A stretch of 64,000 nucleotides of DNA, taken from positions 1,912,260 to 1,976,259 of the forward strand of contig NW_002060952.1 in NCBI RefSeq assembly GCF_000150275.1, read 5' to 3'. The translations under genes were made by a program, and so were the position numbers. Positions 2,481 through 45,528 of this stretch are shown here, in pieces. The notes beneath the pieces were generated by a model, which did not search any database, was not told the origin of the DNA, and saw only the letters and a list, made by a program, of their open reading frames with translations. Each line of letters starts with the position of its first letter. Position 1 is the first letter of the stretch. Origin of the DNA: Trichoplax adhaerens (lineage: Eukaryota; Animalia; Placozoa).

Positions 2481-3524
2481 ATGGGACCATCACCAATTGT
2501 CGATATCGGTATTGCTGTAATTTATATAATCATGTTGGCAATTTCTATACCCGGTAATGCCTTAATAGCATTAGTCATTTTTAAAGAGGCTCCTTTACGC
2601 ACTCCGATGAATTTATTGGTTTGTAATATAGCAATAGCAAGTCTACTGATTGGCATAATGAGAGTTCCATTTAAAATTTTCTCTCTAATGCATTTCAATA
2701 TGGATTATCCCTTTTCTGTCGCCATGTGTCAATTCCAGCAGTTATTACCGACCGCTGGAGTAATGGTCATTTCGTTAACTTTAACAACTATCTGCGTAGA
2801 TCGCTATATAGCGATTGTCCATCCTCTTAAAAAATACTTAAAACTTAGTAAATGTAGAACTACCTTTCTCATATTTGGCTATTGGATGTTATCACTAGCA
2901 TACTTTGCACCTTATGCTAGCTTTAACGAATTATATGAATATCAATCCAGAAATTATTGTATACCAATCTATCCAGAGTCGCCGGATGATATTGTCCTTA
3001 CTAGAAATGAAACAACCGGTAAAGCTTTATCTTCAATCGAATTGTCAAGGCTGATTAATTGGATCTTCTTTGGATCGCTAGCCTTTTTAATACCAGCGCT
3101 TATCATGATTGTGCTATATTCGAAAACCATCTACACATTATGGTTTAGTAAAGCTCCATGTGATCGTACTCAAATCAATATTCACCACTTACAAGAAAGG
3201 CTGAGAAAAAATAGGAAAGCTATTAAATTACTCGTCGCTTGCTTCCTATCATTCATTATCTTCAATACCCCTTATTATACTATTTTTCTCCTTATGGATT
3301 TAAAGCAACTAACAATAGATCGTGCTTACAGCGGAATTCTTATTAACATTTTAATATTTTTCAATTACTCTTCCATCGCTTATAATGCAATCATTTATGG
3401 CTACTTTAATTTAAGTATAAGAGAGCGCATATTGGTAGCATGTAAAATATCAGTTCGAAAAGCATCCTATCGTATTATAAGTAGATTTAGCAAATCTGAA
3501 CATATTGAAATATCTACTGTTTAA
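2481..3524 (+). CDS. Class A (rhodopsin-like) 7TM GPCR, peptide-receptor-like orphan, single coding exon, 347 aa
   Basis: Seven hydrophobic segments. TM1 GN (IPGNAL), ICL1 LRTPMN, TM3 Cys and CVDRYIAIVHP, ECL2 Cys (NYCIP), TM5 FLIP..IMIVLY, TM7 NAIIYGYFN. A likely 5'UTR splice acceptor (ttttttttcgtag) ends at 2277. Confidence 0.93.
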   Translation: MGPSPIVDIGIAVIYIIMLAISIPGNALIALVIFKEAPLRTPMNLLVCNIAIASLLIGIMRVPFKIFSLMHFNMDYPFSVAMCQFQQLLPTAGVMVISLTLTTICVDRYIAIVHPLKKYLKLSKCRTTFLIFGYWMLSLAYFAPYASFNELYEYQSRNYCIPIYPESPDDIVLTRNETTGKALSSIELSRLINWIFFGSLAFLIPALIMIVLYSKTIYTLWFSKAPCDRTQINIHHLQERLRKNRKAIKLLVACFLSFIIFNTPYYTIFLLMDLKQLTIDRAYSGILINILIFFNYSSIAYNAIIYGYFNLSIRERILVACKISVRKASYRIISRFSKSEHIEISTV

Positions 3525-5918: not shown

Positions 5919-6982
5919 TGGATTGCTTGCTAAAAAAAGACCGGTGTCGCAAAATTTTCAATGGAAATAAAATGTCTGATTATGTAATACGTATATGCCC
6001 TTGGCTTAGCTGCCGTACTCTTTTTAGTGGACTACAAAATAAATGCTGTCAATAGTATAAATATCTTTCGTAGTTTAAAGCACCCAGTGACAGTGAGACT
6101 GTCCTGTCCTCTACAGTACAGTACTGTACTGTAGGTTCAAGCTTTAATACTGTACAGTACAATGTAGTCCACGGTCGCAGAAGTCCCTCTTTCGGTCCTT
6201 TCCTTTTTCGTGCAATGACAGTATGTCCACTACAGTAGTCCGTAACATTTCCTTGCGACACATCCAAATATGCCTCTGAAAGGATGTAGAGTGTACAGTA
6301 TACCTTCAATATACTTGGTCAAGTAAATATGTCAAGATTGAACAAAATGAGCTATAGTGATCAGACCAGGTCTTCTTCTTCTAGTCTATGATACTGTACT
6401 GTACAGTGTACTGTACTGTGTACATTGTACAATCACTGTACGCCAATGTCACAAATTTCGTTCGTTACCATGAATTCTTCTTCTCTGATGACCTGTAAAA
6501 CCTTGTACCGTATTGTAAATCTACTACCAAGCGTCACTACTTTCACTACCCTGGCGAAGGACCTTAGTCAAGAGTAAGAGTCAGTTTAGAAGTGGACTAA
6601 CAGCCAAGTCTACTTACTCATGGACTACTCGAAGGCCCTTTCTCTTCTTTCAAGTAGTCCATACTGTACCGTCGTAGTCACACAGTACGTGCAACTACAG
6701 CACGCCAACGGCAAAATTGAACAGTGAGTCTGTAAAAGCAAGTCCAGTATAATACTTCCAGCCTTGATCGATGGCCATGGTGGTCTTGGCCTATGGGGGA
6801 AATTACACCAGTCGATGGATTGGTTGTGAGTGGTCGTAAAACACGAAAGGAACGGAAAGACAGCCAACGGAATCGCTGCTACAGTGCTTCCTTGCTTGCT
6901 ACAGTACCGTAGAATGTTGTGCAGGACACTGTGCAGTGTGCATTGTACTGTACAAAGCAAATCAATCGCCTGACTTGTCGAG

Positions 6983-8367
6983 ATGATCATTCGGAGTGTT
7001 GGAACTACTTGCAAGTATTTAGTTCGAGCTAATATTGCCACTATTCTGCCTTGTCGTAAAATGAGCTTGCAACAATCCATTACTTTAAGCTCTGGCTATC
7101 AAATGCCCCTTTTAGGGCTAGGGACGTGGAAAAGTAGCGACGATGAAGTCGGTAATGCTGTTAAAGCTGCTCTTGATTGCGGCTACAGGCATATTGATTG
7201 TGCAATGTGCTACGATAATGAAGAATCGGTTGGTAAAGCATTAAGCGAAAAAATTGGTACCAGCGTCCAACGGGATGAATTGTTTATCACTTCAAAATTA
7301 TGGAATACGATGCATGCACCTAAAGATGTCAAGATCGCTGTAGAAAAAACCTTAAAAGATTTACAACTGGACTATCTTGATTTATATCTAATACATTATC
7401 CTCAAGGATTGGCTAATCTAGGCCTGACCAACTGGGAGCCAACTAATCCTGACGGTTCCTACATCTACTCTGACGTTCATTATAATGACACTTGGAAAGC
7501 GATGGAAGAATTGGTGGATGAGGGTAAAGTCAAGTCAATTGGCGTATCCAACTTCAATAGTAAGCAAATTGATGACGTATTAGCTAACTGCAGGATCAAA
7601 CCAGTCATCAACCAGATCGAAATACATCCATACTTTACTCAAAGTCCTTTGGTCGATCATTGTTTATCTCGTGGTATTTCGGTGACAGCTTTTAGCCCTC
7701 TTGGATCTTTCGATAGACCGCAGAAAAAAGAAAATGAACCTGTACCACTAGAGGACGCTACAATTAAAGCTATTGCTAAAAAATATGGAAAAACGCCGGC
7801 TCAGGTCATGATTCGATTCGCAATCGAACGCGGTTTAACGGTTATTCCAAAGAGTAAGTCGGCTGCAAGAATAAAAGAAAATGCTCAGGTAGGATGTGCA
7901 AAGTCAATTTTCTTAAATTGTTCTTATAGCAATCGCGTGATGCGCGTATACATGCGTACGAGTACTAAAATTCACCTATACGCACATTTTAATAATATCA
8001 ATCCTTATAGTCTGCTCTACAGTAAGCATCGTAATCGCTCAATTGATAGGCTTATTTACTATGATTATGATGATTAAAATGGAACTGAAGGGAAATGTCC
8101 ATGTTGCAGGTTTTTGACTTTTCCTTAACGCCTGAAGATATGGACTCTATATATTCTCTCAATCGTAATTGGAGAAGCTGCTCTTTTACTGTTGTAGTAA
8201 GTATAGTTTTGAGCCCCCATTCATTAACTATTTATTGGATTGACATACATTACTCTTGGAATAATATTTCTATCTGGTTATTGTTTTATTTAAATCTGTA
8301 GATCAATGGAGTTGAGTATCCTGAATATCACGATCATCCGTTGTATCCCTTTTATGAGCCGTATTAA
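6983..8367 (+). CDS. AKR1A1: Aldo-keto reductase family 1, aldehyde reductase (AKR1A1-like); exons 6983 (or 7061)-7888, 8110-8196, 8302-8367
   Basis: GLGTW; catalytic tetrad in HIDCAMCY (D,Y), TSKLW (K) and LIHYP (H); SIGVSNF, NQIEIHPY, VIPKS. C-terminus HPLYPFYEPY matches the AKR1A1-type [10 protein letters not shown]. Both introns are GT-AG, phase 0. Confidence 0.92.
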
Positions 8368-12147: not shown

Positions 12148-15100
12148 TTAAAAATTTTCTTTGCGAAATTCAAAGCCGTATTTCTGACAGTAAGATTTTA
12201 GTAGACTGCCTAGCTGATGTGAACCGCAGAAAAATACTGATACTTTTCCATGGTTGGATTGGCTTAAACTATCAAATACCTAGTATAACAGATAAAAATA
12301 TCATATTAGTAACAAAGTCTGCATCCTTAATGTTATTTATTGTTAAAGTTGTGAAAGTTACCTGATTCCAATCAGGCCTACCAGCTTCTGTTTTCGTTCT
12401 TAAGCCAGTAATTAAATCTTTCTCACTTTTCTTATGAATTAAATCGAGGGCCATCTGTAAACCAATGGCCTTCATGTCAGTTTTTCTCAATGCTGAGGTC
12501 ATGTACATATGCATATCTAAGAGATGATTTAAATTTCCATCTTCTGTTTGTTCAATTTCAAGTTGGCTTAATAAGCTAATAAACCATTCAAATGCCTTTT
12601 GATCTCGATTGATCCAAAAAAAATCGACCTAAATTATAAAATTTTGCATGGAATATTAAATTCACATGCTGGAGTTGCAACTAAGATTTCATATTTCTAT
12701 GCACATAGATTGCATCTGATGCATTTACATTTTACAACACCTTTATGATATAGAAAATGAAGATACAAATGATATTCCATGTTGCTTTATGTAAATCTAT
12801 GATATAGAAGTGGCACCTTTTTTAGGTTCATAACTGATGATGGCAGTTTATCAGTCCAAGTATAATTGCACTGAGGGCAAACTTGTCTTGCTGCACTTCG
12901 ATATCGGAATATGATACTCTGTAAAATAGACGCAAATGGAGTAACTCCTATTCCAGCACCGATTAAAACTGCGTGATCCGCTTGAAAGATATGTGTACTC
13001 GGTGTACCATAAGGACCATCAATAAATACCTATATAAAATATAATAATTACGCTTAAGAGATTCTCACTTATGTACAATAAGACACATTTCTATTTGGAT
13101 CTGCTATTTATTCCGAAGGCCCATTCTTTAGTGATATATTTATGAATTCGAAATTAAATTACGGTTCTTACTTCAACTTTTGTCCCAACAACGCTTTTCC
13201 TTGCAGATCGACGTCGCTGGAAATCACGAATCTCGTAGTCTTCTGGTATGGCAATACTCACTTGCCTCTTTCTCATTTCTCCAGAATTAGGACAGACTGG
13301 TTTTAGGATCCCGTTATTAGTGCCATTCCCAGCAGCGAGCTGTTGGCCTGAATTAGTAGCACTACCAACTCCGCCATCATTTTGCAACGGAACTGCCACA
13401 ATAAGATCATCTTGAATAGCTGACATCCTTTGCAACGAGTTAGGTACTCGTTTTGCTGCTATTGCAGGATCTCCAGAAAATTTAACTGAAGACTGACTAG
13501 CTGTAGAAAACTTCCTGTCTAAGCTGTTGGCACGGTTAACATTAATTGATGACATCGACCTCACTGATCCTCTATTTTGATCTAAGGAATTCAATTCAAT
13601 ACCGAATGAAGTAGCTACAGGCGATGGACCGGGTGATTGAGCAGGAGATGGTTGTGTAGAAATAACCGGAGTATAAATCTTTGAAGGCAGTTGAGAATAT
13701 CGAATTGGTGCCACTGGTGATGGAGCATCAGAATGAACCGGTGATGGAGCTGCAGAATTAACAGCCGAATGGGCAGGAGAAGGCATTGGCGAAAAAACTT
13801 GCATCTCTTTCTCTACTGCTGCCTCGATAGGGCCTAATATATCTTCGCGAGCTAAATCGCTGACTGCTTCACTTCGAGTTCTCCTGACTTTGAGATGTTT
13901 TTTATTTGCCTTTTGATCACTGATATCCACACTGCTACTTCTTGTTCGATCTTGCCGATGCGTAGGCGATAATGGTGTTGTTTCTAGGGCCTCATTTTGA
14001 TTTTCATCATCGGCGGTGAATGCGGCGTTATCAATGCCATAACTAGCAATTTCTACTGCTTCTGATTTCATATTTTTAAATCCGTTTCTGTCGGAAAATT
14101 TTGGCGTTCCTATTGTACTTTCGTTAAATGATGAATTACGACTATTGCCAGTATTCGTTTCTGTCATATCAAAACTTCTTAAAGACGAATTTGTACTCAT
14201 GAATGAATTCATCGCCCGGCTTCCTTTGGAGAATTTGCTTTCTCTCTACAAATAATGAGTAAAACCCATGATATTATTAAAATATTCCAGCACTATTTGT
14301 TTCTCTATCAATAAAGTACCGTAATAGAATATAACGAATAGATATGATATCATATAATGATAGCTATTTACCTTCGGAATTTTAGGCGACAATAAAGGTG
14401 GAACATCACTACCAGCTTCGACGTGCTTTCGTTCAAAATATTCATACAGCCTTGTTGTCCAGGTGCCAACTGATCTAACATGGAACCATAATGTATGCTT
14501 TTGCTCTGGTGCACTACTAATTGTAAAAGGATGCCATTCAGCGTATTTAGCAATCGCAGGAATTTGCAGGAAGGCATAGTCTCCAGGCTGAAAGTGAAAG
14601 TTACTCGGCCTATTGATAACTAAATGTGTTACCTAGATAAAAATATACATGCACAAGTATTTATTTATTATATTAAAATAGCATAAAATGATTTAACCGT
14701 AATCCAAAACAATTTTAATTAAAGTTGAAGCTATCAAATAATACATTCCTATATGTAACGATAGAAAAATCAATGTTATACTTTTAGGTAATTCAATCTA
14801 CATATATTTTAATCCTTATATTAAGGATCAATTACCTTGGAAGGTAGCATATTGGCTGCAATAATATATGTTCTACCATATCTCGCTAATTTAACGAATT
14901 TGGAACGATAAATTCTCTCTAAAACATAGATGGATCCAGGTACAATAAACCAATGCCAAAAATTAGGACAATGTATTATCAGTAAAGCAAACCAAGGTAC
15001 AAATAATAAATGCGTCCAATAAAAAACCTATATGCGATCAGAAATTAATTAATCATACTGTCTAAAACACAACAATGTTGAAATATGATTATTGGCTATA

Positions 15101-18100
15101 CGCTCCTCACCTGAAAATAACCTTTCCGCCTGACGAATGGCATAGAGCATATAATCATAACTAACAAGATAATAACTAAGGGATAGCCAGTTATGTAAGC
15201 AGTTCCACCAACCCAACCAATTTTGTACTTGGTTGTAAATAAGACATCAACAGCACTGCGATTGTTTGGAGGATCTGGTAAAACTGATGATAGGAAAATA
15301 AAATACAAAATCGTCAAGTTATTACTGATTTAATTAAAATTTGAATCATTTTCAAACACTTTAACATGCAATAATATCTTAGGAGGTTCAAAATTTTGGG
15401 CCATATAACTACGAATAATGTGTTAACAACACTGCCTATTGCAGTACTTAACCGATGTAATCATAATTATAAAGTCTATCATCAGTTCTATTGAATTGTA
15501 TCGATATCAGAATTTCGATTATAATTTATCCATTAAGTTCATACTAACCAACATTAAAGACATGAGCAACAGTATGTACCAAGGCAAAGAATCCGATAAC
15601 AATTCCAGTCATTTTATGAAAATCAATATGTTGATCAATTGGCAAATAAGAGCCTAAAGTCGTTGATCTAATAATAGTTAAAGTTTTCCTTAACATCAAA
15701 ACCATAATAAATGTGCAATTAAAGTTTAAGCATAAGCCACAACCACGCGCTATCTTGATCCAAATATTTTTCTCTCGCTGCTGGTAAACAGCAAATCCAA
15801 ATAAACCAAAATTAGTCAACCAATAAACAATCATAAATAATGTGATACTCAAGTTGTTACGAATATAACGCAAGGTTAAATAATACGGGTAAATTTGTTT
15901 TAAAGAATTTTTCTTTTTTTTCGGTGGTGGTTTAAGCCAATTGGCAGCACTAATAGTGGATAAAGTTAATTTATAAGACATTTTTTCTATTTACAAGTAA
16001 ATTAAACTCAATAACATATGAATACATGTACATCATGCTACATTATTCGATCCCATATTATGTATTATACGAATATATTAAAAACTGACGATAACATTAG
16101 TTCTCATTTTTAACACCCAGCATAACTGTATTGATCTGATTAAAGTATCCTAACTATCCTTTAAATTGTTCGCAAATAGTAAAGAAATGATAGAGTAGAT
16201 TCACACAAATACATCAGAAAAATTATCCTCGGAAATACGGTAGTTGCTTTTTATCTTCCCTTAAAGTAACTACAGCGAATGTACGCATACGTTGTAATAG
16301 GGACACTGTAAGATCTCTACATTATATATCATTTTGGCTACCGAAATTTAAAGGATAATAAATAACTTTCATACGTGTATGGAATTAAATCTACAATATA
16401 ACCTAATGACGTACCTAATCGTTAAATTTTCGATGACACCAGGGTGTTTCTGTAATTCTCCTTCTAATTCTTCGTAGGTTATGGTGCCACTACCGTCAGC
16501 ATCAGCGCTCTCGAACAACGCCTGCGTTAATGCATTCAAGTTCGATTCACTAAATTCTAGAGAACTTTCACTTATGCAGGACTGAAGAACTGTCTTTAAC
16601 TCAAAAGGATCAATAAATCCATTACCTAATCGAGAATATTTTTAAAATAACTTCAAAATGAATTCTATAACTTTTCGAAATGTTATTCCTACTAATTGCT
16701 CTTTAAATCATAACCTTATGCCCAAGCTTACTCTTTAGATAAACGGGAGCTACAGTTTAAGTATTGATAAGAAATAAGCGGAAATATTTTAAGCGTTAAT
16801 CTCTGTACGTACCGTCAACATCATAAACTTTGAACAAAAATCTTAGTTTCTCCGAATTATCGCCACTTGTTAATTTATTTAATCCGCCCATTAACTCATT
16901 CAGACTGATAGTACCACTACCATCTTCATCAAACAGCTGAAAGAAGCGTTCTGCGAAGAAAGACTAAAGGTACCAAAAAATGAATATAAAACAGTGTTGG
17001 ACTAAGTATTTCTCACTTTCTAAACTGGAGTAAGGCAATGATTCAGTTTAAATTTGAATCTATTTTATGGTGACGAATCTAGTGAAGAATTATGATATTT
17101 AATGTAAGATATATGTTTTGCTGCTTTACTTTACCTTATCTGATCAAAACTGTTTAGTAATTGACAGTCTAGCTAAAATAGGAAATTATCGTACCTCCTT
17201 AACATTCAAGGCATTTTTAAATTCTACTATATTGATTTGCCGATCTTCACCAGCTACGGCAGCAAATTGCTGTTCAAACCAACTAAGCCATTTTGCATCT
17301 CTATCCAGACTATAATAATTAGTTTACAAGAATCAATAAATTACCCCATCTGATATTTATAACTACCTGACTTGATAACGCATAAATTATTACATCTTTT
17401 AAGATATACGCATAAAACATGAGTTAGCAATAACTACGAGAAAAAGATGTTGTAATAGTAAAGACGTCAGTAAATGGTTTACCATGTTAACTTTTCCAAG
17501 CTTCCAATTAATTTCTGGAAAGCTACGCGGCCACTGTTATCACCATCTAGCAGGTAGAAAAATCGCTCAAGGAACTGTAATGAACATTATAAAATTAGTT
17601 AAGTATCTAATTTTCGATTTTAACCATATTGTAAAATCGAATGTGAGTAATTAAGTATCACAATGACAAAGTCAATAATCTCTAGTTTTTAAGAACGAGA
17701 AATTTATTTCGAAAATAGTTTTAACCTTACCCCTCTGCTAGTAATCGCTTTTTTGAACTGGCTGTGATCAATATTTTCGTCATCATCACAGACTGCTGTG
17801 AAGGAATTCTTAAACCATTCTAATTTCTTCTTTCGACTATAAATTTACATGGAAATAAAATGGAATACGGGTTAAATTTAATGATTAATGGTATCAATGG
17901 TAATGAGATTTTTCAGCGTAAGCAATAACAAAACCAAAGGAAGAAATGATTGATCTAACTAAATTAATTTGTCTCATTAGCAAACTCAGTATGGTAAAAC
18001 TTGACGTTCGCTTTATAACGAACACCTTAAATCTAAATGTTATTATTACCGGTGTAAAAAGTAAAAATGGATCAGAGGCGACTATTACTAGTCTATTAGT

Positions 18101-21100
18101 ACCGGCACCGAATTAAAAGGTTCAGACTCCTTGTCAATATTAAAATTTTCTCTACAATTATAGGTAAATATTCTGTTTAATTACAATATTAACAGGATGC
18201 TGTAGATCAGTATGTACAGTAAATAACCGAAATTTTATTAAAATATGAAGGAAAAATGGCGTTAGTAGTCAAAATAATTTTGTTCATGTCGAAATGACGG
18301 CAAATATGATAATTGAATTGATAGAGGATGTGAGTACCATTGAAATTTGTACACATTAACATAATAAGTGATTGTAGTGCTGTCGAGAGAACTGCGTGTA
18401 TAGATAGATATACTTATAGGACGTGGCAGGATATTAGATTGCGACAAGAAATAATATTTAATAACATACAGTACTATTAACTAGTCACTGCTTAAATGCT
18501 AGCAAATAGTGGTATTGTATTAAATCCGAAAAGCATTTCCCGTATTGTCAAAAACCATTTGAGGAAACTTTTAACATAATATTAATGCATTTAATTTTCA
18601 TTTAAAATTGACTGTTAGCTATAAAGTAAGCAAGTATTTCATTCATGAAATTTCTAGATATCATAAGATTTTTCACTAGTATTGGAGTCAAGGCCTCAAA
18701 AATACCAGATTGAATGTACACTATTATCAGCGATATGCTATCAAAGATTAATTATTTTTAATGCTGCTTAATATTATGCTGTACTAAGATTACGCATAGC
18801 AAATATTGCTATAATTCTTTAAAAGTAGTTAATGAATGGATATCCGAATTATTTATGAAAGTGCATAATAAATTTAAGTACCGAGCCAGCTCTTTACGTA
18901 TCATCGATAGCAGCAGCATATCCAATTTACTACACTCAATATTACGTACTGGTAATTAGTAAAAATCTTTTTTTAACGTATAACATTATTCAATGGATGC
19001 AATAGCAACAAGCCGATTACACTTAACGTAGAATATAACCTTATCAGAAAATATTAAATTTAAAATTATTCATGACTCAACTTAAGCCTATTTTCTAGCA
19101 GCTTTGGGTAGAACGAGTGTTTATGTTACTTCTAAAATTCGAACCCCGGCTATTATGTGTAATAACCATGTATAAAATCTCTCTTAATATGACTAAGATT
19201 ACACTTAAAACATTGGCATAGCCGGTTAATGCTGGAAATTCTTATGTTTTACTCTTAATTTGAACTTTAGCCAGATGATTTATATTCGTCTATAGTAATA
19301 ATTAAAGACTATTACTTGGTCATTACAATAACTCAACTTATCCCTGTTTTCTAACAGCTTTACGTAGAATAATGTGGAACGTTATGTTTATGATCCGATA
19401 AATATACATCGTAATTATTTTAAAGGAACGATTTTTCAGCTAAAAAACGGATAGAGTTGAGATCTGATAACAGTTTTTCCGGTAGATTTTAATTGTGGTA
19501 TTAATATAAATCGATGCCATAAAGGAAGAATTTGGCGTCATTAGGCTATTTCTTCATCAATTCGTAAAATGAGATCGTAGATCTAATTATTTCTAATTTT
19601 CTGTAGTCACTCAATTTTAACAACTTCAGTCATAAACAAATAATTTGAGAACAATAAAAACTGTTATTGTATTTTCTTCTTAATTTATATTTATGCCTTC
19701 ATTAAAACAAAATCTTTGAAGATTTATTAGATACTCTACCGACAAGTGCGACAAGCAATTTCTAACTGCATTACTAGGTAGTTCTATTTACAGTATACCA
19801 TTCAGCTATGCCCCTCTAGCTATTTATTCCGATATAATATCATCATTAACTCTATCCAATTAGGTAAACAACAACTATTCATTTAAATTCATAGAATATT
19901 CATCCTCAAAGTCATAGAATTCCCATTCTCATCATGTATAATTGACTTTTTACCACTATCTTGTGTAAAATAATAGCACAACACAAAGAAGTTCAAGGGA
20001 TAAAATAGGTGAAGAATTGAAATATTGCTGATAGCAAAGTAGCATCTTTCATTCTAAAGAGGGAAAGATAATAAAGAAATATATTCGCACCTTTTCGCCT
20101 AAAGTAGCCGCATTATTTTATAAATAAGCTTCCGAAACAATATTAAGAAATATTGAAGTACAACTACCGATCATGACTAAGAATTAAATACACCTTCATA
20201 AACTCCTCAGTCGTAGCGATAATGGCTGAGATCTAACTTTTATCGGTGCATACCAATGTCAAGTAGCATTCAATTTATCCGTAACAGACGATAATTCACG
20301 TATTTCTAAGCAAACCTAATATCTATTAAAGTTAATAGATATTCCAATAAACTGATATAACAAAGGTTGCTTTATGACTGCAAGAGATATTTTTAACTGG
20401 ATTCATCAAATTGATATTAAGTTAACCTAAATCTTAATGTGACTTTAACAAAGATCTTTTTATATAGCTAGAATAGATGCCATGATCGATTTTGATGAAG
20501 AGCGACGTGATCTTTTGCAAGAACTAATAAGTATTATCATTGGATGTAGTATAATACTTATGTAATTATACTTAACGAGGTTAAGCTAATGCAGGTTGCT
20601 CAAGATCAAATGAAGATATTTATAAACTAGAAGAAATCTATCATATCGTTTTATAACACAGGATCCTTAAATCATATAATAAAATATTCGTACAAAATTG
20701 ACAAAGAAACGTGTAACTTGTCATTCTTTAAATAAACTTTATCAAAAGTGCTGATTTATCCAAGCTGTTATCCGCTACACTATAGAAAGCATAACTCAAT
20801 GTACTTTATTCAATTTTATCACGGACCTACTAATCCGTAGACTATTTCCGATCATTCTGTGTCTTGTAGCAAAGGTAATAACTATCTAATCAGTTTTGAT
20901 CATGAATACAGTATCGCTATGATTAAAATAAATTTTATCGCTATTGTATTTCTGAATAAGCCACTAACTTAGACTTCATAATATCTATTTTTCAAGAATT
21001 ACATGATTTGGTTTGATAGTTTAGACACGATCTAAACTGCTACGTCATCCAACTTTTTACATCTTATCCTTTAAAGAATGTGATGCGTTGAATTCAAAAT

Positions 21101-24100
21101 GTTTAAAATATATTCAATTCTTCTGTGTAGTACTTGCATAGTAATATCAATATACGGTAGTAGGATTTATAAATTGATATTTCTGTAATGAACAGGCTCA
21201 TATTATAAATTATACTATTAACCAACTATCAAATAAAAGTAAATGTAATAGCTACGAAATTTTGTTTCATAATAGACAATCATTTATCTTTCAGGGTTAA
21301 TTACTAAATATCGAAAGAGATTGCATATGTAAAATGATAGGACGATAAAGGCCATTCAAAAAGTTTAAAATAAATTTAGAGTTCTTGTTTTTTTTTTGAC
21401 ACGCTGTTCAAATAACCTCTAGTAATATAACAAAGTAGCCATAAAGATAAATGGAATATTTTCAAAAAACTATTATATTAAAATGAAATCAGGTCACATA
21501 TTAATCACAATGGCTTCAGGTGGTAAATTTGCTAGAGAAAAAATATATTTAGGTATAATTTCAGCTTTACTTTGATAAAACATTGATTTTAAGACCTAAC
21601 ATGGTAATCAATGTTATCGGATTTTGGATCATTGTTATTTCCTATTTCCAATAACTATCCTTAAATTAGCTTTTGATGTAGATAATCAAAATTTTTACCA
21701 TTACCTTGAACTACAGAAGAATAAGGGATTGTTGTGTAAGGGCAGTCAACTTTGAAAATAGGTTAGATATTTAAGACATTGCCCCACAATAGTAGTAATG
21801 AATTGTAAATGGGAGAAAAAAATAATCATTCCAAATAAAAATTACTTTAGGTATTATATCACTATGATGACGACACAGCCTCAAGTAAGAAAGAAGGCAC
21901 CCACGTAGACAGATGGCAGCATTACTATTACAATGTAAAATGGTTCATTAAGATTTGGATTAAGTAGAGAGGCAAAAACACCCCTGCATGCCTATTACTT
22001 TCCTTTTTACTAGTATAACGGATTTACTATTAAATCTGAAAATTATCTCCTATCACTTCTACTAAACATCTCTTATGATTAGAAAAATCTGCTACTAGGC
22101 TTAATCATCGATTGCTCTCATAACATAATGTAGGGATAAGAATGATTCAGATCCTTAGTTAAGCCAGATGTAATAGTAACAGAAGAAAAAAAAGAACTGC
22201 CTCATAGCGGAGTAATACAAAAAAGGTTTACTAGAACTGAATATCTTCAGCACAGAGTCAACTGGCAGCTCTAATAGTACCGTAGCTTTTTAAATAAAAT
22301 ACCCAGCGATTATGTTAATCTGTAATACCTAGGTTCAATCTATTCTCAAATTGAACTAGGGATGTAAGCTGAAATGATTTTTGTGACAAACTGAAATCTT
22401 GTCATCTCTACTATTTACGACACTTTCTACATTAATTAATTAAGAAATGACGTATTTATTATTATTGTTTAAAGAGATGTTGACAACAACATTATTAGAT
22501 CTATCTGGAAATTAATTTAATTACTGTATTCTACTTCCATTAGAAATTATTCTAGTGATTTAATTCATTATGATGTTTTATAATAAAAAAATAACGATGA
22601 CCTATTTGTAACGCGCGTCAACAGGGTAGTTTTATGTCAGCATTCGAGATCTTTCCGAAGCTATTAGCCCACCTACATATTCAAATTATTAGTTACGTAA
22701 CAAATGCCGCGAAAATGTACGTAATGTAAAATGAATCATTAACTTGGTATGAAAAAAGATTGTGTTAGCTATTCAAGATATCTTATAGCTATAACATAGC
22801 ACTAATTCGATATAAACTCCAAATGAATAGCTCCCAGTTTAAATTGTAGTGTCGAGTATGAAACTTTGAGTAATGATGGATATTACATTCGAATTTAATA
22901 TCAAAAATGCTAATCCAATCTAAATAGACTGCCATCATAATCATTAAAGCACTTTATAATGATCAATAAAAGTAAATATCAAGCAATTAGTGTGACAATT
23001 AGATACATATCAAATAGATCGGTGAAACAACAGATGACTTATTAATTTCTATTTTTTGCCTCATTTTCACCACAATTTAAATGATGCCCTAAACGACATT
23101 TAATCAATTGAATTTTCTCTATTTATGTATAAAATGATCTAACCTTAGCTCCTACTAGAGAATACTCCGATTATCTTTGTAATCGCGTTACAAACGATAT
23201 TAAGTTTAAGAAACTTACTCTGTCAACTTTGCAATTCCTCCAATGACCTCTTGTAAAGTAACGGTCTTGTTACCATCTGATGCAAACATTCGAAATAATT
23301 GATGAGAAAACCCCTAAAAGTAACATATAATGTGTTACACATCATCTACGAATTCTTTAACTGAGTAATCTAAATTATATTGTTAAACGTACTTTTGATA
23401 TTTATTTGCATTTAGTCAATAACGTAAAGTAATACATCATAATTAAAAATGAACATTGCGAATGTATTCTATCGATAGAGAATCGTACAATGTCAGAACT
23501 ATCCTATCACGAAAGTAAAATATACACCAAAAGTACAGATATTATAGGCTTAACAATATTTTTTAATATTCGGAATAGTATGCTTGCCACATTTAGCCAT
23601 TATGGGCCAGTAAGGGGATGATATTATAAGGTGAAAAATACTTTATTTTACGAACGTAACCTGAGATAATAAAAAGTATAATCAAGTTCATCCTTGGATG
23701 AGGTAATGTTCAGTGCTGCTATAGATTTAAACTTTTTCTCAAGCAATACCTTTCCTTTATCGTATCTCGATAGTACAATAAAGGTTATATAGTACAACTG
23801 TAATATTAAAATGTAGTACATTTATTACCTATCATATAGTATAGAGGTACAAAGCAATATTAGATTATCTCAATTTCCATTAATATCGTTTAGTATTGCA
23901 ATAGTTACTGTATCTGAAATTTGATCAAAAAAATAAGTTTGGTTTAGATTTGTGGCATTAATGTCCAAAAAGTCTTAATTTAGATCATTAGCAGCGAGTA
24001 ATAAACTACATAAATGCCAAGTACATAGGAATATGATTAATTCATCATTTTGTTATTTGCCTTTTAATACGCGTATTAGAATTAAAAATCAACCGTCACG

Positions 24101-24971
24101 CGGATTAAATTAAACAACACTTTAAACTCTAAAGTAAATTTGCCTCTAAAGCTATTATTTATATATAGCGAAAAATAGTTCAAGGTCTAGAGTAGTATAT
24201 GGATACTATAATTTTATCACGTATTGATGTTGCAGTTGGTTACCTGTCATGCAAACTATAATTTTATCACTTATTGATGTTGCAGTTGGTTATCTGTACA
24301 TAGATTTTTCAACTAGGCTGCAATTTGTAATTATTTTCTTAGAAGAAACTGTATCCGAATCAAAAATAATCCGGAAGCGAGACGATAGCTTTACTACTAA
24401 AGCTATCGATAAATAAAACAGGTCAAAGTAAACTTAATGGAAACTTTTAATTATACACGAGTAATATAACAAGTCATTTGCCAGCACAAGTGCTGATCGA
24501 AGATGATGATACCAACTAATTCTAGGGAATCTGTAATGTAATATTCTATCACTTCTTGACGTTAACACGTCATAGAAAATCATCTCCAAGTCAACCAATA
24601 AGCATTACCAAAGTTCCCTATCATATTACTATTATGCTATTACTTTATAAATAGCATTAAAAAATGACTAATATCATACCAATGGATTAGCTTACCTCCA
24701 GTTCCAGTCCAGCTTTTTTAAATTGACGAATGGTAAGACGATCATTTTTAGCATATTTCACCAAATTATTGGCAAACCATTCTATAGCTGGGACTTTGAA
24801 GTCAATAGAAAATTGCTTTTTTGAGCCTAGCCTACTTAATGTAGATCTTAAACTCATATTGCTAGGACCTCGAACTACTCTCTTCTTGGGTGTATTTATT
24901 ATTTCCCTATCGAGATTAGATGATGATTCAGGATTAAGAGGTTGAACGGATGCCGATCTTTTCAAATACAT
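12148..24971 (-). CDS. NOX5: Calcium-activated NADPH oxidase NOX5, ~1252 aa, 15 coding exons: 24971-24696, 23313-23219, 17836-17731, 17574-17483, 17309-17195, 16963-16813, 16625-16415, 15949-15549, 15283-15111, 15027-14836, 14632-14372, 14245-13172, 13029-12817, 12628-12362, 12279-12148
   Basis: All introns GT-AG with consistent phase. EF hands DEDGSGTISLNE, DVDGNGFIDPFE and DADGSGTITYEE; ENLTISAANWL followed by polybasic PPKKKK; haem histidines in FHKMTG...HTVAH and YWTH...IIH; FAD motif EWHPFTISS; IDGPYG; NADPH motif GAGIGVTPF; VDFFWINRD; FFCGS; terminal KENF*. The start codon is uncertain; a possible upstream UTR donor lies at ~25230. Confidence 0.93.
24205..24297. repeat. Tandem duplication, 50-bp period, in the first NOX5 coding intron
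   Basis: actataattttatcac(g/t)tattgatgttgcagttggtta(c/t)ctgt at 24205 and 24255. Confidence 0.9.
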
Positions 24972-27900
24972 TATGTAATCCAAGACACTTATGATGTAAT
25001 CAAGATAGAGCAATTGAAAAACTATTGACTACTGAAGATAGACAAATACGATGTAGAAACAGCATATTACAAAATTGATGACAATTGTTAAATAGAAAAA
25101 TGGTTGGTAAAAGCAGATTCGGCGAGACGAATACCCAATGATAGCCATAGCCAATTTTAAATCATAGTGATAATAAGGAAAAAATAGAAAAAAATAAAAT
25201 TAATACGGCAAAATTATTAGATTAACTTACTCCTAAAGATGACTTGCAATGCCATCCGGTAATCTCCAACAAAATATACTGATATTCCAAATGTAAACAA
25301 CTTAAAAGTAGAAAAGTTGTTGAAGATGATAATGGGCAATTAACAAAATGACGTGGAAATATTCAGAAGCAATCGAATTGTCAGCAGCATCAAGGTTTTT
25401 ATGAAAACTCTTCCTATTGAGACTATCGAGATAGGTAAACTGCAAAAGGATCGACTTTGAAATGGCAATTGAATCAAAGAAATACCATGATATAATATAA
25501 GGGTCATATGTTTGAATAAAGGCAGCGAATAGTAATTAATCTAACGTCCTGACTATTGATGGTTCTATATCAAGTTGACTAAGATCACTTCTTCCTTAGT
25601 ACTAGCTAGAATGATAATGACTATATGATTATAGCCAATGTTATGATTAATGGAAATCGATGGCAATACAATTCAATATTTTCAATATTCCGATGATGAC
25701 GGAGTTATTTTTACGTGAACTAGCATTTCAAGACAGAGTAGGAACAATCTAAGACGAACAATACATCAAACAATTTTGAACAAGGACTTCAATTAATGTC
25801 AACAAGGCATGTATTCTATCAATAGTAACAACTTGTGACATGATAAAGTTCAATAATTCGATAAAAGCCCTCCCTAAGGAAAATCGATGGGATGACGTTG
25901 AATATCCTGATCATAGCATGCATAGCAAGGCTAGAATAGAGAGCAGTCAAAGGACAACATTTTTTGTTACTGATGATCAATGACTCGGTTAAATGAAGGA
26001 TCAATGCAATCCTATCTAACATGAACCAACCATATCTAATAATAGAACAATAAATTAACTCAATCTATTGTTGCAATATAAGCAAACAATTTGAAATTGA
26101 TTCAATGAAGTTACAAAGAGAAATTGAGTCAAGATTGTTATTCTGACTTCATTTCACCAACAGAAGGTATTTCAACGATCTAAAGAAATAGACAATCAAG
26201 CATATGATATCCATTTTGTCTGGCTTTCTATTGTCCTATCAGTGAATATAGACTTTATTCAAGTTGAAGTTAATGCGGCACTATAATTTGATGTATTAAA
26301 TACCTGAATTATATACTGTAAGTCATCAAGTCAAACAAGAAACAATAACTCTTTAACGAGAGGCGATAGCAGTTCCAAAGATCATCCTTAGTGATTTTTG
26401 ATCTTGTCAATTGACTTGGATAATAAATTGGCGATTTAATAGATGAGATGGTAAATTCATTTTATCTGCCCATGAAAAATTTCTAAGTATTTATAACCTC
26501 ATTGATTACAGACTGCTTGTCATTAAAAGGAAAATGAGATCGAGACAAGTCAATACGGGATTATTTTCATTAATTTTTTTATCCATCATTTAGAGATATA
26601 ATACAAAATTAAAAATCAGACTAGTTCAAGTTGCAGTAAATCTAGCTCAATCCTTTGTTGTTTCATTAATGCACTATAAATCAAATAGATATCCTTGAAC
26701 TAGTCTCAATCGTAGGCCTTGTACAGCTACATCGGATCACAATCATCTTCCCTATTCCTCTTGGTAGCGATATCACGTATATAAAATGCTTTGTTTCTAA
26801 GTTAGCAGCACAGTTTTGATTACAGAAAAACTCCAATTTATCAATATCATCAACATTAGTCTACGTAATGATATAGCAAACAGAAAATAATCTATTCTTG
26901 TTAGCTTGATTAAGTATACACTATCTCTATTTTTAAAGCCTATCTCATATAACCTTCTAGTCCTCTATTAGATAACCATTTATAGACGACTCAATTTTAA
27001 TTCACTTTACAAACTAGTGCTAGAAAATAGAAAAAGAGGGCTGTTCAGATAAGATCAAGATTTAAACTATAGAAAGAATAGTCATGCGCTAATTTATTAA
27101 AATCCTATGCGTATACATAAATATAAAAATTTCGGGAAACTTTCATGTGTCGTAACATTATATTTTTGAGTGGTCAAATTTTTTATTTAAAGTTGAACAG
27201 TACCCGCCACTAATATTAATCTGCTGTCATCCCTTAACCGCGATAAAGTTTAAATTCACTCCATAAAAATCGATTCAACGATTATTATCCTATTTCTTAT
27301 ATTTATAAATAATCAATTTCTTTTATAGCCTGCCGACGCCTGTATCTACCGATATTATAAATACGCGTAACTTGTAATGCACTAATAAAAAGTCAGACTT
27401 TATTCATCTATTATTGACGACTAATTATTATAACTAATTTAATAAATAATTTCATCGAAAGAATTACAAAATATTTTAATTCGAAAGAAATTTATTAATG
27501 AATATATCACCTTTTATGTTTATATAGCATTATTGTACCATAACAACTTAGACAACATAAAAACGTTAGTATAGCATCCAGTAAAATCCTTTAAGCTGAT
27601 CACTATGAATTAAAAATTTGTTTCGCGGTTATCTAACTTCTGAGGATAGAAATTTTTAAAACTCGGTGATTGATTCTAACAGGTTCAAATTAAATTTAAA
27701 CATTAAAAACGATTTTATATAAATATTCAGTAGCTCTGTGGATATGCTGGAGTGATTGTCTAAATTTCAAGTATTTCATTTAGAGAGAAATGTTGCCTGT
27801 TCATCATATTATCCTATTTCAGGATTCAATTCTTAGTTTTGGATATTCATACCACTATCAATTTAAACATGCTAAAATATATAATAGATGGATATGCCTT

Positions 27901-35753: not shown

Positions 35754-38700
35754 AGTTGACTCGAAGAGGGAAGATATAGTTGTCACAAACTTGTAGTATC
35801 AATAATGAAGGTTACTCACTCTACTCAGGACAAAAAAATGATTCACTTAGTTTATTTCAATAATTTATAATGGAAACAGCTGGTGTTCGATATCCCACTG
35901 ATATTTAGAACATAACAAAATCGGCTTCTAAAAACATCAAAAAAGGGTTACTATATATTGGTTTATTGTGTATTATTCGATAAGCATAACGAAATTTTTG
36001 CATGGCCTTTCTTCCGTGAAATGTCAAATCTTAAAATATCGGGGAAAGTTAATTAAGATAGAACATCTATCATTTATGTATACCCCCTTGCACTGTAAAA
36101 GATTTACAGTCGTACAAACAGCTGTTCGGGGTTTTTAATTATGTCGAGGTTATGATATTAAGTTGCATACCATATAATGTAGTACAGCATACTGTAGTCA
36201 GTATGTTAAATAGAACACAGATTACGAAATGTTGTACTATTTGATTAGCTTTTTAACTTTCATAGTCTAACTGAAATATATGAAATCGATCTGTTAAAAA
36301 TGGTAAAAATTATGAATGACGAATTCGACCATTAGACTGGGAAAGATTTTTGAAATATCAATATTATAGTATTTCTGTAGATAAGTATTAATGATAGATA
36401 ATTGACTGTATCGTTCTACCACCTAGATTCTCTTAATATCTTATATTTAAAAAAATCTGTATGTAATAATTTATTAATTACGATAATCTGCATTATTTTT
36501 ATGTTTATGCCATAAATTAAGGATTTTTCAATTGAACTTTAAATTTTACATACGTAAACTACTTCAAGATTATCATATCTTTCATTAGATAATTAATAAA
36601 ATGACAGCTAATTAAGTTAATATTTAAAGAGATAAGGTAAATAACTAGAGTAGCATTAAAACCGAAAATCGGGTTAAAATGTATCAAACTAGGAATACGA
36701 CCATTTGCTACGTTCATATGTACTACAATCAATTTTAGCTGTCATCATCAGATTAATACAACATTGATATATATTTGCAGATTTATAAATTATACTAAAT
36801 ACTCATACCTAATTCAATCGTTATCGATGCCTTTAAAGACTACAGTATATTAATTGTACGATTGTGAGAAATCCATATAAAGGATTGCTTTAATAACAAA
36901 TTAGATGAGCTATTAATTTCTAGTTTATTGGGTAGCACTTAGCTTTACTCATGAACTCATACTATCTTCGAAAAAATCAAAAACAGTTACAGTGAGTCTG
37001 ATACTAAGCGGAACAATAATCCCGTAATGGAAAGTTATCGTAGTAAAATAACTAAGGATATTGAAATATTAGTTTCGGCAAAGTATGCACAATAGTCACG
37101 TATTTACTTATTTTTAAATAACTATTGATACAGAGTTCTCTCGATGATATACTAATAGCATAGGTAGAACTAGCATCTCACGAAGGCTTGATTTAAGCCG
37201 CCAGCATTACTCGGTCTTAATGATGTTTTATGGATTACGTACAAAAACAATAAATAGTAGTGAACGTAGAAACACAAGTTTATTAGAAGTAAAATTAAAG
37301 CTTTAATAACTATCGATTTTATTTCTAATCAGAACGACTAGATTATTTATAGTAGAACCAATTAGACGTATTACATCCCGTGTCAAACGCGAGAGAATAT
37401 TTGAATTTATTATTATATGCAAAGTTTGGTTTTAGTTGTGGCAGTATAGTTCTATACTGACCTGATTTGTTTCATAAAGTAAACGCCAAAATTTATATTT
37501 TTAAAAATATATATTCTATAGCGCTATCAGCTATAGAGATACGACAAGGCTAAAAGCGATATGAACTATATTTATATGTCATAGATGAATCTTTGCTCTC
37601 AGTTAATGGAATAACATTTAATTCACCTTTAGCATTTTTATCTATCGCAATATTTAAGTTTTAATTTCTTTAATATTGCAAATTCCCTATGAGAATATTC
37701 AACTTGTTTATTGCGGTGCCTTTCGATGAAGATTAATAGCTTCCGCACGCAATCCTATCTCATACTTTTTTGTATCATTAATAAATGAAATCTATAGCTA
37801 ACTTTATGGATGCGATTTAACGCTTTGACCCAAAATTTTATTCTAGATAATTCAGATCAGTAAAAGTATAGACGTATATTGAGTACATCCAGTTAATACG
37901 GGGCAAATTCACTTAAATGCATCAATATAACTTAGGAGTTTAGAAACAATTTTAGACTAACCATGTAGGGAATAAACTGTTGGAATTAGTGCTTATCAGA
38001 AATGGGCGACATAGAAGAATTAATTTTATTTTATTGAAACGATTAATTCTAACAGGTGACAAAGCTTTTATCGTTATCAGTTGGAGTGAGTTGCATCAAA
38101 ATTTTTTCGGTTTCTTATTAAACTGACCTGAATTTTGTGGCTGAATCCAATGCGATGCTTAAGCTTCTTTTCACTATTTAGTTTTATCCACATAGATGTT
38201 TACCGGCAAATAATTAACCGCAATTTAGTAATGGAATAAATTAAATTAGTAACAGATATAAAAACATAAGCTAAGGATGATATAGGCGTAAATAACTTCT
38301 GAAATTCGTCAATTTGTAGCCTAGAAGAAGTATTCTATCAAAATGATCGGTGCGAAGGTTTTTATCTCTTACAAACTAACTCGCTATTTCACCTATACGA
38401 CTACTGTACTATTTTTTTTAATAAAGTCGCTAAGCAATATATCAATCTTATAAAAAGTATCCTACTAACTTTCTAACGTCAATTACTTCTTATTATTTCC
38501 GCCTTATTCAGCGTTAGACCAGCATGAAGGAGTACTTAATTCGTAAAGAGATTATGCCAAGTTCACAATGATTTTATAGTCAGATCCTATGACGATACAT
38601 TTATGGTAGAGCTATCATTATAATATGAATGTTAATTCTAGCAACGGTAAATTATCGATTATAGTATTATTTTATTGCATAAAGTCAATCTATTCATGTA

Positions 38701-44700: not shown

Positions 44701-45528
44701 TTAAGAAAGGAGCATTAAAATATTAAGATGGATATTTCATCTAGGAGTTCAATTAGCTAAACTATACATTGGTTGTCTAATGATTTTTACAGTAGTTCCA
44801 TGATAATCTACTGATATGCACAGTAGTAGAAAATATGTTAATAACGAAAAATATTAGATATTGCTTTTTCGTCAACTTTATATTATCGTAAAAAGAATTT
44901 CTTAAAATAAATTATAGGATACTTATGCTAAAAATCACGTGCAGTATATAGTGTAGATTGATAAATCTCTTCGTAATTTAGACAACTATTGCGCGGCTGA
45001 ACACAAAAATTCTAATTCTTATATCCTAATTAATTGAAAGTTGATTAGAAACAATAGTATAGTTGCTACTGAATACTAATATTAAGGTATCGTACTATTT
45101 CTTCATTAAAAATTGAATTACAGTATGAGTATCAGTTAGATGACAAAATGTAATAATTCCACCAACATTAGTTACTGTACTCAAGCATTAAGGAATCTTA
45201 GAATTTTCTGACATTAAAGGTTTATAAATTAGTATTATAAATTAAAGCTAGCGTTATGACACGATGCATCAGTATATTTGAAACTTTAAGAATTTTTAAT
45301 GCTGTTCATGTAAAGTATTGGATGTTAAAACATGCGAATACGTTGAAGACTTATCGGTTATGAAAATTAACACAGGGTTAACAGCGATATATTTAATTTC
45401 AAAATGGACTCTTAGAAATGGCAAAATCAAGCATTATTCACTTAAGATTTAATATAAATAACTTCACTATCTATTACCGGCTTACTCATCTGTTTAATTT
45501 TTTATGTTGTATGGGAAATTTCAATAGA

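What the first reader, a model, noticed from the sequence alone, without database searches (positions are those of the whole stretch)
16813..24790. NOX5 with a triplicated EF1-EF2 lobe built by exon-pair duplication; the extra copies look Ca2+-blind
Seen: upstream of the normal four-EF-hand domain there are two more copies of the N-lobe, each a two-exon cassette. Exon A copies: IEWFANNLVKYAKNDRLTIRQFKKAG / LEWFKNSFTAVCDDDENIDHSQFKKAI / LSWFEQQFAAVAGEDRQINIVEFKNAL. Exon B copies: GFSHQLFRMFASDGNKTVTLQEVIGGIAKLT / FLERFFYLLDGDNSGRVAFQKLIGSLEKLT / FFAERFFQLFDEDGSGTISLNELMGGLNKLT. The A-B intron is phase 0 in all three copies and the B-A intron is phase 2 in both junctions. The extra loops lose key ligands (Q, K or Q at position 12; A at position 1). 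Established: vertebrate NOX5 has four EF hands that activate the enzyme. Inference: eight EF-like motifs, the outer four acting as a structural, decoy or interaction module that could retune Ca2+ sensitivity. The most diverged copy sits beyond a 5.4 kb intron, so isoforms with 1, 2 or 3 N-lobes are possible.
Basis: partly seen in the sequence, partly recalled or inferred. Interest (0 to 1): 0.78.

Follow-up and report, generated by a model that had tools for sequence, protein, structure and literature searches.

The report
Eight-EF-hand NOX5 shared across animals
This gene for the calcium-switched superoxide enzyme NOX5, from a Trichoplax-like animal, is spliced to carry three copies of the first calcium-sensing lobe instead of one; sponges, a soft coral, amphioxus and mosquitoes share the arrangement, so it is likely an ancient animal form, and here the two extra lobes are predicted to be calcium-blind and likely tune the switch.

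Summary
The minus-strand gene has 15 coding exons and 1252 aa, and differs from Trichoplax sp. H2 NOX5 (RDD42245.1) at 8 residues. All five N-terminal junctions appear in RNA-type contigs from three studies; none skips a lobe. The triplication is not a placozoan invention. Three lobes occur in homoscleromorph and demosponge sponges, an octocoral, amphioxus and mosquitoes, and they match by position; a Trichoplax-only triplication is rejected (AU p=0.002). Vertebrates, echinoderms, hemichordates, molluscs, chelicerates and 31 of 31 bacterial N-termini show one lobe. All four extra loops of Trichoplax miss a key calcium ligand, while three sponges keep canonical loops, so calcium-blindness looks secondary. 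The lobes are predicted to fold and keep their hydrophobic core. Best reading: calcium still switches the enzyme through the canonical four hands, and the extra lobes ride on the mobile N-lobe arm and tune activation (inferred, untested). The papers read give NOX5 four EF-hands (five in some insects); nine searches found no description of the triplication. Whether vertebrates lost two lobes or descend from a one-lobe paralogue is unresolved. New variant of a known enzyme.

The parts
24696..24971 (-). First coding exon (aa 1-92): about 58-aa disordered tail, then helix-loop-helix A1 (EF1-type half of extra lobe 1, from about 24794)
   Evidence: joint to 23313 in X4, X5, X9, X13, X16
23219..23313 (-). 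Exon B1, EF2-type half of extra lobe 1 (aa 93-123); Ala at loop position 1, Lys at position 6
   Evidence: weak EF-hand_6 hit below the curated cut-off; joints
17837..23218 (-). 5382-nt phase-2 intron between lobe 1 and lobe 2
   Evidence: joint in X4, X9, X13, X16; not in X5
17731..17836 (-). Exon A2, EF1-type half of extra lobe 2 (aa 124-159); Gln at the last ligand position
17483..17574 (-). Exon B2, EF2-type half of extra lobe 2 (aa 160-189); Lys at loop position 12
17195..17309 (-). Exon A3, canonical NOX5 EF1 (calpain-like loop intact; aa 190-228). Human NOX5-beta aligns from residue 192 on
16813..16963 (-). Exon B3, canonical EF2 and start of EF3 (aa 229-278)
16415..16625 (-). EF3-EF4 (C-lobe), both loops canonical (aa 279-348)
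14836..15949 (-). Three exons (15949-15549, 15283-15111, 15027-14836) for the ferric-reductase membrane domain with His460, His474, His546 and His559
14372..14632 (-). FAD-binding exon (HPFTISS at aa 638)
13172..14245 (-). 1074-nt exon: 358-aa Ser/Pro-rich insert at the place of the human INS1/PhosR segment
12148..13029 (-). Three exons (13029-12817, 12628-12362, 12279-12148) for the NADPH-binding domain, CxxC motif and C-terminal ENF; stop TAA ends at 12148
25231..25639 (-). Alternative 5' non-coding exon (upstream end not fixed) spliced to 24906; skips the ATG at 24971, in-frame stop just upstream, next Met still precedes lobe 1
   Evidence: joint 24905/25230 in X4 and X13
38128..38232 (-). 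Distant 5' non-coding exon (upstream end not fixed), inferred to be joined to 25031 across a 13-kb intron
   Evidence: loose end at 25036 in X4, X9, X13 maps once in the window; GT donor follows

Best explanation
This spliced NOX5 gene carries three tandem copies of the EF1-EF2 lobe, an arrangement shared with sponges, an octocoral, amphioxus and mosquitoes and so likely older than the split of these groups; its two extra lobes are predicted to fold without binding calcium and likely tune activation. Shown: exon structure, splicing, shared architecture, loss of key ligands in lobes 1 and 2, intact ligands in lobe 3 and the C-lobe. From published work on human and cyanobacterial NOX5: calcium opens EF3-4, which releases the inhibitory REFBD segment, while EF1-2 swings towards the membrane; the N-lobe is folded without calcium, does not detectably bind the dehydrogenase domain, and is needed for activation. 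Inferred: the Trichoplax enzyme is switched the same way, and lobes 1-2 form a semi-rigid extension on the swinging arm. Lobe 1 is basic and would meet the inner membrane face or an acidic partner as the arm moves, shifting the calcium threshold or the duration of activity. In sponges the extra EF2 loops would add real calcium sites; placozoan and mosquito copies likely lost these independently and kept the fold.
For: Splicing. Architecture: 18 of 220 stored NOX5-type proteins have three lobes, 4 have two, 194 one and 4 none (isoforms and near-duplicates included, sample dominated by vertebrates). Names. Position-wise orthology: same-position pairing of lobes 1 and 2 beats swapped pairing in 28 of 36 species pairs; lobes grouped by position are not rejected (AU p=0.31), per-species triplication is (p=3e-7), and so is a Trichoplax-only triplication (AU p=0.002, SH p=0.12). 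Two amphioxus isoforms differ by one residue at the column of the A1-B1 intron, and Dysidea isoform X2 joins X1 at the column of the B2-A3 intron (indirect signs of shared introns). Loops: 0 of 2 extra EF2 loops fit the canonical pattern in Trichoplax and in the mosquito, 6 of 6 in Corticium, Oscarella and Dysidea. Fold: block pLDDT 79-94 over residues 61-190, pTM 0.62 with 55 of 364 residues disordered; the same in Corticium. Constraint: lobes 1 and 2 are 44% and 48% identical to Corticium against 18% for the tail and 13% for the insert, and core columns stay hydrophobic. Net charge is +4 and +2 against -5 for lobe 3. Known mechanism: PMC11088703, PMC7317449.
Against: No calcium binding or activity was measured. 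The direction of any tuning is unknown. The extra lobes evolve faster than lobe 3 (44-48% against 75% identity to Corticium) and are absent from many lineages, so the enzyme can work without them. Lobe 1 is not basic in all species (-1, -3 and 0 in the Amphimedon cluster, Paramuricea and Ochlerotatus). Mosquito lobe 1 groups with lobe 2 sequences in the free trees, so the insect copies may have a separate history. The lobe alignment has only 71 columns.
Confidence: 0.5

Rival explanations
1. The extra lobes are a docking or oligomerisation module for a partner protein (localisation, scaffolding) and do not affect calcium gating.
For: The hydrophobic core and an exposed-looking W/F-rich first helix are conserved while ligands are lost. 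The two mosquitoes keep lobes 1 and 2 at 89% and 93% identity without canonical loops. The canonical domain's closest folds are target-binding EF proteins: calcineurin B, KChIP, NCS-1, CIB.
Against: No partner is known. Between the two mosquitoes the insert is as conserved (89%), so that pair says little. The lobes are joined to the moving N-lobe by linkers of only 3-5 residues, so some effect on gating is hard to avoid.
Confidence: 0.2
2. The Trichoplax extra lobes still bind calcium (or another cation) weakly through non-canonical loops and act as a high-calcium sensor.
For: The lobe 1 EF2 loop keeps Asp3, Asn5 and Glu12; the lobe 2 EF1-type loop holds an acidic run. Calpain-like loops use a backbone oxygen at position 1. 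The human N-lobe is already the low-affinity pair, Kd 15-20 uM.
Against: Three of the four loops lack the bidentate acidic last ligand (Gln, Gln, Lys). The fourth lacks Asp1 and Gly6, and its paired loop is dead.
Confidence: 0.18
3. In Trichoplax the extra lobes are a decaying remnant, kept only as a harmless folded spacer.
For: Ligands are lost, the lobes evolve faster than lobe 3, and many animal groups have one lobe. A RefSeq one-lobe isoform exists in Dysidea.
Against: The frame is intact across four exons and is the only spliced form listed. Identity to sponges is well above that of unconstrained parts. Only 1 of the 8 differences from RDD42245.1 lies in the lobes, and it is Ile/Val.
Confidence: 0.12
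4. Evolutionary rival, independent of mechanism: early animals had two NOX5 paralogues, one with three lobes and one with one; vertebrate NOX5 descends from the one-lobe gene and never lost lobes.
For: One-lobe vertebrate, hemichordate, echinoderm, mollusc, annelid and nemertean proteins form a clade (aLRT 98.9). A two-paralogue tree is not rejected (AU p=0.30). Sea urchin has two NOX5 types. Bacterial NOX5 has one lobe.
Against: A tree with bilaterian proteins nested among three-lobe ones is not rejected either (p=0.36). An unnamed three-lobe protein (P0031) is sister to all named animal NOX5 in the free tree (aLRT 82). Monophyly of three-lobe proteins is rejected (p=3e-6), so loss did happen at least in chelicerates or echinoderms unless their gene models are cut short. 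No one-lobe gene of its own was seen in sponges or Trichoplax.
Confidence: 0.3

Closest known systems
Human NOX5-beta (PDB 6sz5, 8u7y, 8u85-8u87; PMC11088703)
   Same: Aligns over residues 192-701 and 1048-1252 (E 1.6e-242). Four-EF domain, membrane domain, FAD and NADPH motifs and CxxC motif are present. Top Foldseek hit for the full-length sponge model.
   Different: Human starts at the third lobe. This protein has 130 more residues forming two further N-lobes, and a 358-aa insert where human has a segment of about 36 aa.
Cyanobacterial and other bacterial NOX5 (Cylindrospermum stagnale, PDB 5o0t/5o0x; PMC7317449)
   Same: Same domain order and the same N-lobe family.
   Different: One full N-lobe at the gene start in 31 of 31 loci that include the N-terminus (6 of 37 loci lack it; one locus has an extra half-lobe hit upstream).
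Insect Nox/Nox5 (mosquitoes, planthopper, Drosophila Nox)
   Same: Mosquito proteins have three lobes with degenerate extra loops. The Drosophila sequence printed in a 2007 supplement begins with a stretch that matches mosquito lobe 2 by eye (not computed).
   Different: Papers count four or five SMART-predicted EF-hands (PMC7564065) and, in the passages read, do not describe a duplicated lobe. Insect lobes are more diverged and lobe 1 does not group by position.
Annotated record RDD42245.1 (Trichoplax sp. H2 NOX5) and sponge, octocoral and amphioxus RefSeq/GenBank NOX5 models
   Same: The gene model built here from RNA joints has the same length and 8 substitutions, so the sequence itself is already public.
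   Different: The names carry no note of the extra lobes; Pfam finds at most 2 EF stretches per family at E<=0.001 in the Trichoplax protein.

Membership tests
NOX5 (EF-hand NADPH oxidase) | Ferric-reductase membrane domain with two pairs of haem histidines | tested here: met
   PF01794 above cut-off; His460/474 and His546/559, aligned to human His
NOX5 (EF-hand NADPH oxidase) | FAD- and NADPH-binding dehydrogenase domain with conserved motifs | tested here: met
   PF08022 and PF08030 above cut-off; HPFTISS, GPYG, GIGVTPF, FFCG, terminal ENF
NOX5 (EF-hand NADPH oxidase) | N-terminal domain with calpain-like EF1 and canonical EF2-4 | tested here: met
   Lobe 3 and C-lobe loops fit (criteria from PMC9421330)
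NOX5 (EF-hand NADPH oxidase) | No peroxidase domain (distinction from DUOX) | tested here: met
   No peroxidase family among 8 Pfam hits; both 5' forms have an in-frame stop upstream of the first Met
NOX5 (EF-hand NADPH oxidase) | Groups with animal NOX5 in a tree of the core | tested here: met
   (no DUOX or RBOH in the tree; outgroup were unnamed one-lobe proteins, one of which has cyanobacterial relatives up to 95% identical)
NOX5 (EF-hand NADPH oxidase) | Calcium-activated superoxide production | not testable with these tools
   Needs an assay
Four-EF-hand NOX5 as described in the papers read | At most four EF-hand motifs | tested here: not met
   Eight helix-loop-helix motifs by profile and model; 'up to four' in PMC9421330, 'four' in PMC1940245, PMC3591440, PMC5372347
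Calcium-binding EF-hand (extra lobes 1 and 2 of this gene) | Acidic ligand at loop position 1 and bidentate Glu/Asp at the last position (calpain-like loop: acidic position 4, Glu at 11) | tested here: not met
   Gln, Gln and Lys at the last position in three loops; Ala1 and Lys6 in the fourth. Sequence test only; the PROSITE-style pattern in the script was recalled
EF-hand pair fold (extra lobes) | Two helix-loop-helix motifs with a short paired strand | tested here: met
   Predicted only: helices 61-73, 81-90, 94-102, 112-120 and 126-139, 148-155, 160-168, 178-189, with strands in the loops

The most novel reading that the evidence does not exclude
The NOX5 of the common ancestor of sponges and other animals had eight EF-hand motifs, up to seven of them calcium-competent, built by two tandem duplications of the N-lobe exon pair. 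The textbook four-hand NOX5 of vertebrates is a derived truncation, reached by starting the transcript in the phase-2 intron before the third lobe, as one annotated Dysidea isoform still does. Placozoans and insects, probably including Drosophila Nox, turned the extra lobes into a calcium-blind regulatory arm.
Probability: 0.5. Interest if true: 0.7.

Novelty: new variant of a known kind. Interest (0 to 1): 0.55.

Why it matters
Published reconstructions treat four EF-hands as the maximum for NOX enzymes and explain variation by loss (PMC9421330). A conserved eight-motif form in sponges, placozoans, a cnidarian, amphioxus and insects changes that history. It also means that insect Nox, studied genetically as the human NOX5 orthologue (PMC11173305, PMC7564065), likely has a regulatory arm that the human enzyme lacks. 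The function of the NOX5 N-lobe is stated to be unclear (PMC7317449). Nature supplies a graded series to test it: one lobe, three lobes with live sites (sponges), three lobes with dead sites (Trichoplax, mosquito), and possibly one gene making both forms (Dysidea). The limits: the sequences are already in public databases, the enzyme family is well known, and no function of the extra lobes is shown.

Tried and rejected
No genome is held for this window, so further NOX5 copies in this animal and intron positions in other animals could not be checked directly. A word-based search with lobes 1-2 alone returned only the Trichoplax protein among 196 candidates, although the sponge homologue exists; that blank reflects low sensitivity. 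The ESM Atlas gave only generic EF-hand clusters below 0.9 for lobes 1-2 and did not place the unnamed three-lobe protein P0031. Complex prediction of residues 58-190 with 193-356 gave no verdict (score 0.09, mark 0.34; the alignment was not used), which is no evidence either way. Fold searches matched mainly residues 189-356; no solved chain in the rows shown covers all three lobes well, but the extra lobes were barely tested. No DNA repeat links the three copies (52-57% global identity), so a recent duplication or an assembly duplication was rejected. No fourth lobe was found in the window. Lower contig depth over the 5' exons in X5 and X16 was not taken as a short isoform, because contig depth cannot rank parts of a gene and X4, X9 and X13 carry one depth throughout. 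The 13045/19050 joint in X16 (21-nt side, non-canonical ends) was treated as an artefact. X8 and X11 had no joints, which is no evidence of absence. A histidine-column check used positions off by one or two and returned 0; the positions cited come from the motif search in the same call. Look-ups of earlier scan findings gave nothing for this locus and only bacterial NOX5 notes (8 of 15 shown).
Full report
Observation. Six exons from 24971 to 16813 join through GT..AG introns of phase 0, 2, 0, 2, 0 into one open frame. With the RNA joints the whole gene has 15 coding exons and 1252 codons and ends at 12148. It differs from Trichoplax sp. H2 NOX5 (RDD42245.1, found) at 8 residues, 7 of them in a 358-aa insert. 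The window is therefore from a Trichoplax; no genome was held to say more. Lobes 1 and 2 are 32% and 43% identical to lobe 3, with local scores of 101 and 133 against shuffle maxima of 49 and 46.

Splicing. I laid 8 of the 20 runs listed. All five N-terminal joints are in X4, X9, X13 and X16 (three studies). X5 has four of five and lacks the 5.4-kb joint. X8 and X11 have only unspliced pieces. X1 covers introns and exons alike without joints and behaves as DNA. Only X5 is on record as RNA; the others are guessed. One 2541-nt contig carries the joints in X4 and X13, and X9 has a contig of the same length and one depth for these joints. No listed joint skips a lobe (one row hidden, none), but contigs drop rare forms. 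Two 5' non-coding exons exist, one ending at 25231 and joined to 24906, the other ending at 38128 and inferred to join 25031. Both forms have an in-frame stop upstream and keep all three lobes.

Origin. The three A-B donors lie 9 codons after the same Phe, and both B-A donors follow K-L-T plus two bases, as expected from tandem duplication of an exon pair; the third exon B has no intron at that point. DNA identity among the copies is 52-57% and no repeat is detected, so the event is old. A lobe profile run on the 220 stored proteins that have both the C-lobe and the FAD region found three lobes in 18, two in 4, one in 194 and none in 4. This set holds isoforms and is dominated by vertebrates, so it is not a prevalence. 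Three-lobe proteins are named from Trichoplax, Corticium, Oscarella, Dysidea (isoform X1), Paramuricea, Branchiostoma, Ochlerotatus and Uranotaenia. An unnamed member of the Amphimedon cluster has a weak middle lobe, and one unnamed protein (P0031) has three. Two lobes were scored in Allacma (partial model), Orchesella, Trichogramma and the named Amphimedon model. One lobe was scored in vertebrates, echinoderms, hemichordates, molluscs, Owenia (partial model), Lingula, Lineus and chelicerates; some of these models could be cut short at the 5' end. Bacterial NOX5 has one lobe in 31 of 31 loci with an N-terminus.

Orthology of lobes. Each Trichoplax extra lobe is 37-48% identical to the same-position lobe of Corticium, Oscarella and Dysidea, but only 28% to its neighbour. 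Lobe 2 remains as close or closer to lobe 3 sequences, the slowly changing parent. Same-position pairing beats swapped pairing in 28 of 36 pairs among nine proteins; the misses involve the mosquito, the Amphimedon cluster or P0031. On a 71-column alignment of eight species, grouping by position is not rejected (AU p=0.31), per-species triplication is (p=3e-7), and so is a Trichoplax-only triplication (AU p=0.002; SH p=0.12) (the faster run gave 0.23, 2e-76 and 0.02). Mosquito lobe 1 falls with lobe 2 sequences in the free trees. Isoform differences in amphioxus and Dysidea fall at the columns of two Trichoplax introns, which is indirect evidence that the introns are shared.

Direction of change. 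In a 25-sequence subset of the 56-sequence core alignment (fast search), monophyly of the three-lobe proteins is rejected (p=3e-6), so lobes were lost at least once if the gene models are right. A two-paralogue tree (p=0.30) and a nested tree (p=0.36) both stand. Loss on the line to vertebrates is likely (about 70%, my estimate) but not shown. No ctenophore or named unicellular relative was sampled.

Calcium sites. By the criteria in PMC9421330 (section 3.2), lobe 3 and the C-lobe have four intact loops. The four extra loops fail: Gln, Gln and Lys at the last ligand in three, Ala1 and Lys6 in the fourth. In Corticium, Oscarella and Dysidea 6 of 6 extra EF2 loops are canonical and lobe 2 EF1 keeps its Glu. 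Paramuricea keeps one canonical extra loop, amphioxus one by the stricter rule only, and the mosquito and the Amphimedon cluster none. Calcium-blindness is thus lineage-specific and inferred from sequence alone.

Structure. AlphaFold models give both extra lobes as EF-hand pairs with block pLDDT 79-94 in Trichoplax residues 1-364 and similar values in full-length Corticium NOX5. Linkers are 3-5 residues, and pTM is 0.62 despite a 55-residue disordered tail, which hints at a defined arrangement. The canonical part matches human NOX5 and calcineurin-B/NCS-like proteins. Core columns remain hydrophobic in all three lobes, and identity to Corticium (44%, 48%) is well above that of the tail (18%) and the insert (13%) but below lobe 3 (75%).

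Mechanism. In human NOX5, calcium opens EF3-4, which displaces the inhibitory REFBD segment, and EF1-2 moves towards the membrane (PMC11088703). The N-lobe is folded without calcium, shows no binding to the dehydrogenase domain, has the lower affinity, is needed for activation of the cyanobacterial enzyme, and its function is called unclear (PMC7317449). I infer that the Trichoplax enzyme is gated by its canonical four hands and that lobes 1-2 extend the moving arm. Their net charge is +4 and +2 against -5 for lobe 3, and the first loop of lobe 1 carries basic residues in Trichoplax, three sponges and amphioxus. Contact with the inner membrane face or an acidic partner is my preferred way for them to shift the threshold or duration of activity (0.5). 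Rivals are a gating-neutral partner dock (0.2), weak residual calcium binding (0.18) and a remnant (0.12).

Literature. Nine searches found no description of a duplicated NOX5 N-lobe. What I saw: passages of PMC1940245 and search hits in its supplements; passages and section 3.2 of PMC9421330; passages of PMC9524095, PMC11173305, PMC7564065, PMC7317449, PMC5372347, PMC3591440 and PMC4938588 (97, irrelevant); parts 1-2 of 6 of PMC11088703. These give NOX5 four EF-hands. The nearest prior hint is five SMART-predicted EF-hands in planthopper, honeybee and flour beetle. The fly and Anopheles sequences in the 2007 supplement begin, by eye, with lobe 2, while the legend of its EF alignment names only EF-I to EF-IV. 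Subscription reviews and the supplements of the other papers were not seen and could mention the extension.

Verdict. It is a variant of a known enzyme with no function yet shown. Interest 0.55.

Noticed in passing
window 14245-13172 (-): One 1074-nt exon encodes a 358-aa Ser/Pro-rich insert at the place of the human PhosR phosphoregulatory segment; 7 of the 8 differences from RDD42245.1 lie here. Long unrelated inserts occur at this place in sponge and insect NOX5 too.
   Followed up: partly
window 38128-38232 and 25231-25639 (-): Two alternative 5' non-coding exons, one 13 kb upstream. The nearer one skips the first ATG and carries a short out-of-frame upstream ORF.
   Followed up: partly
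P0325 and P0211 (Dysidea avara RefSeq isoforms X1, X2): One sponge gene is annotated with a three-lobe and a one-lobe isoform; X2 is two residues plus X1 from residue 193 on. RNA support was not checked.
   Followed up: partly
P0330, P0217 cluster (Paramuricea clavata): An octocoral has a NOX5, although PMC5372347 (2017) states that none had been found in Cnidaria.
   Followed up: no
P0030 (Branchiostoma): In amphioxus the canonical lobe 3 has degenerate loops while extra lobe 2 keeps the ligands of an EF2 loop, as if sensing had moved outwards.
   Followed up: no
N-terminal tails of P0002, P0210, P0030, P0330: A short Val/Ile-rich, strand-like stretch followed by Pro recurs upstream of lobe 1 (by eye); possible docking motif, a lead only.
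   Followed up: no
window 2478-3524 (+), 6974-8077 (+), 45397-49412 (+): Neighbours: a rhodopsin-family GPCR in a single ORF, an aldo-keto reductase and an ENaC/ASIC-family channel gene.
   Followed up: no
window 24199-24297: Two tandem 49-nt copies at 92% identity inside the A1-B1 intron.
   Followed up: no
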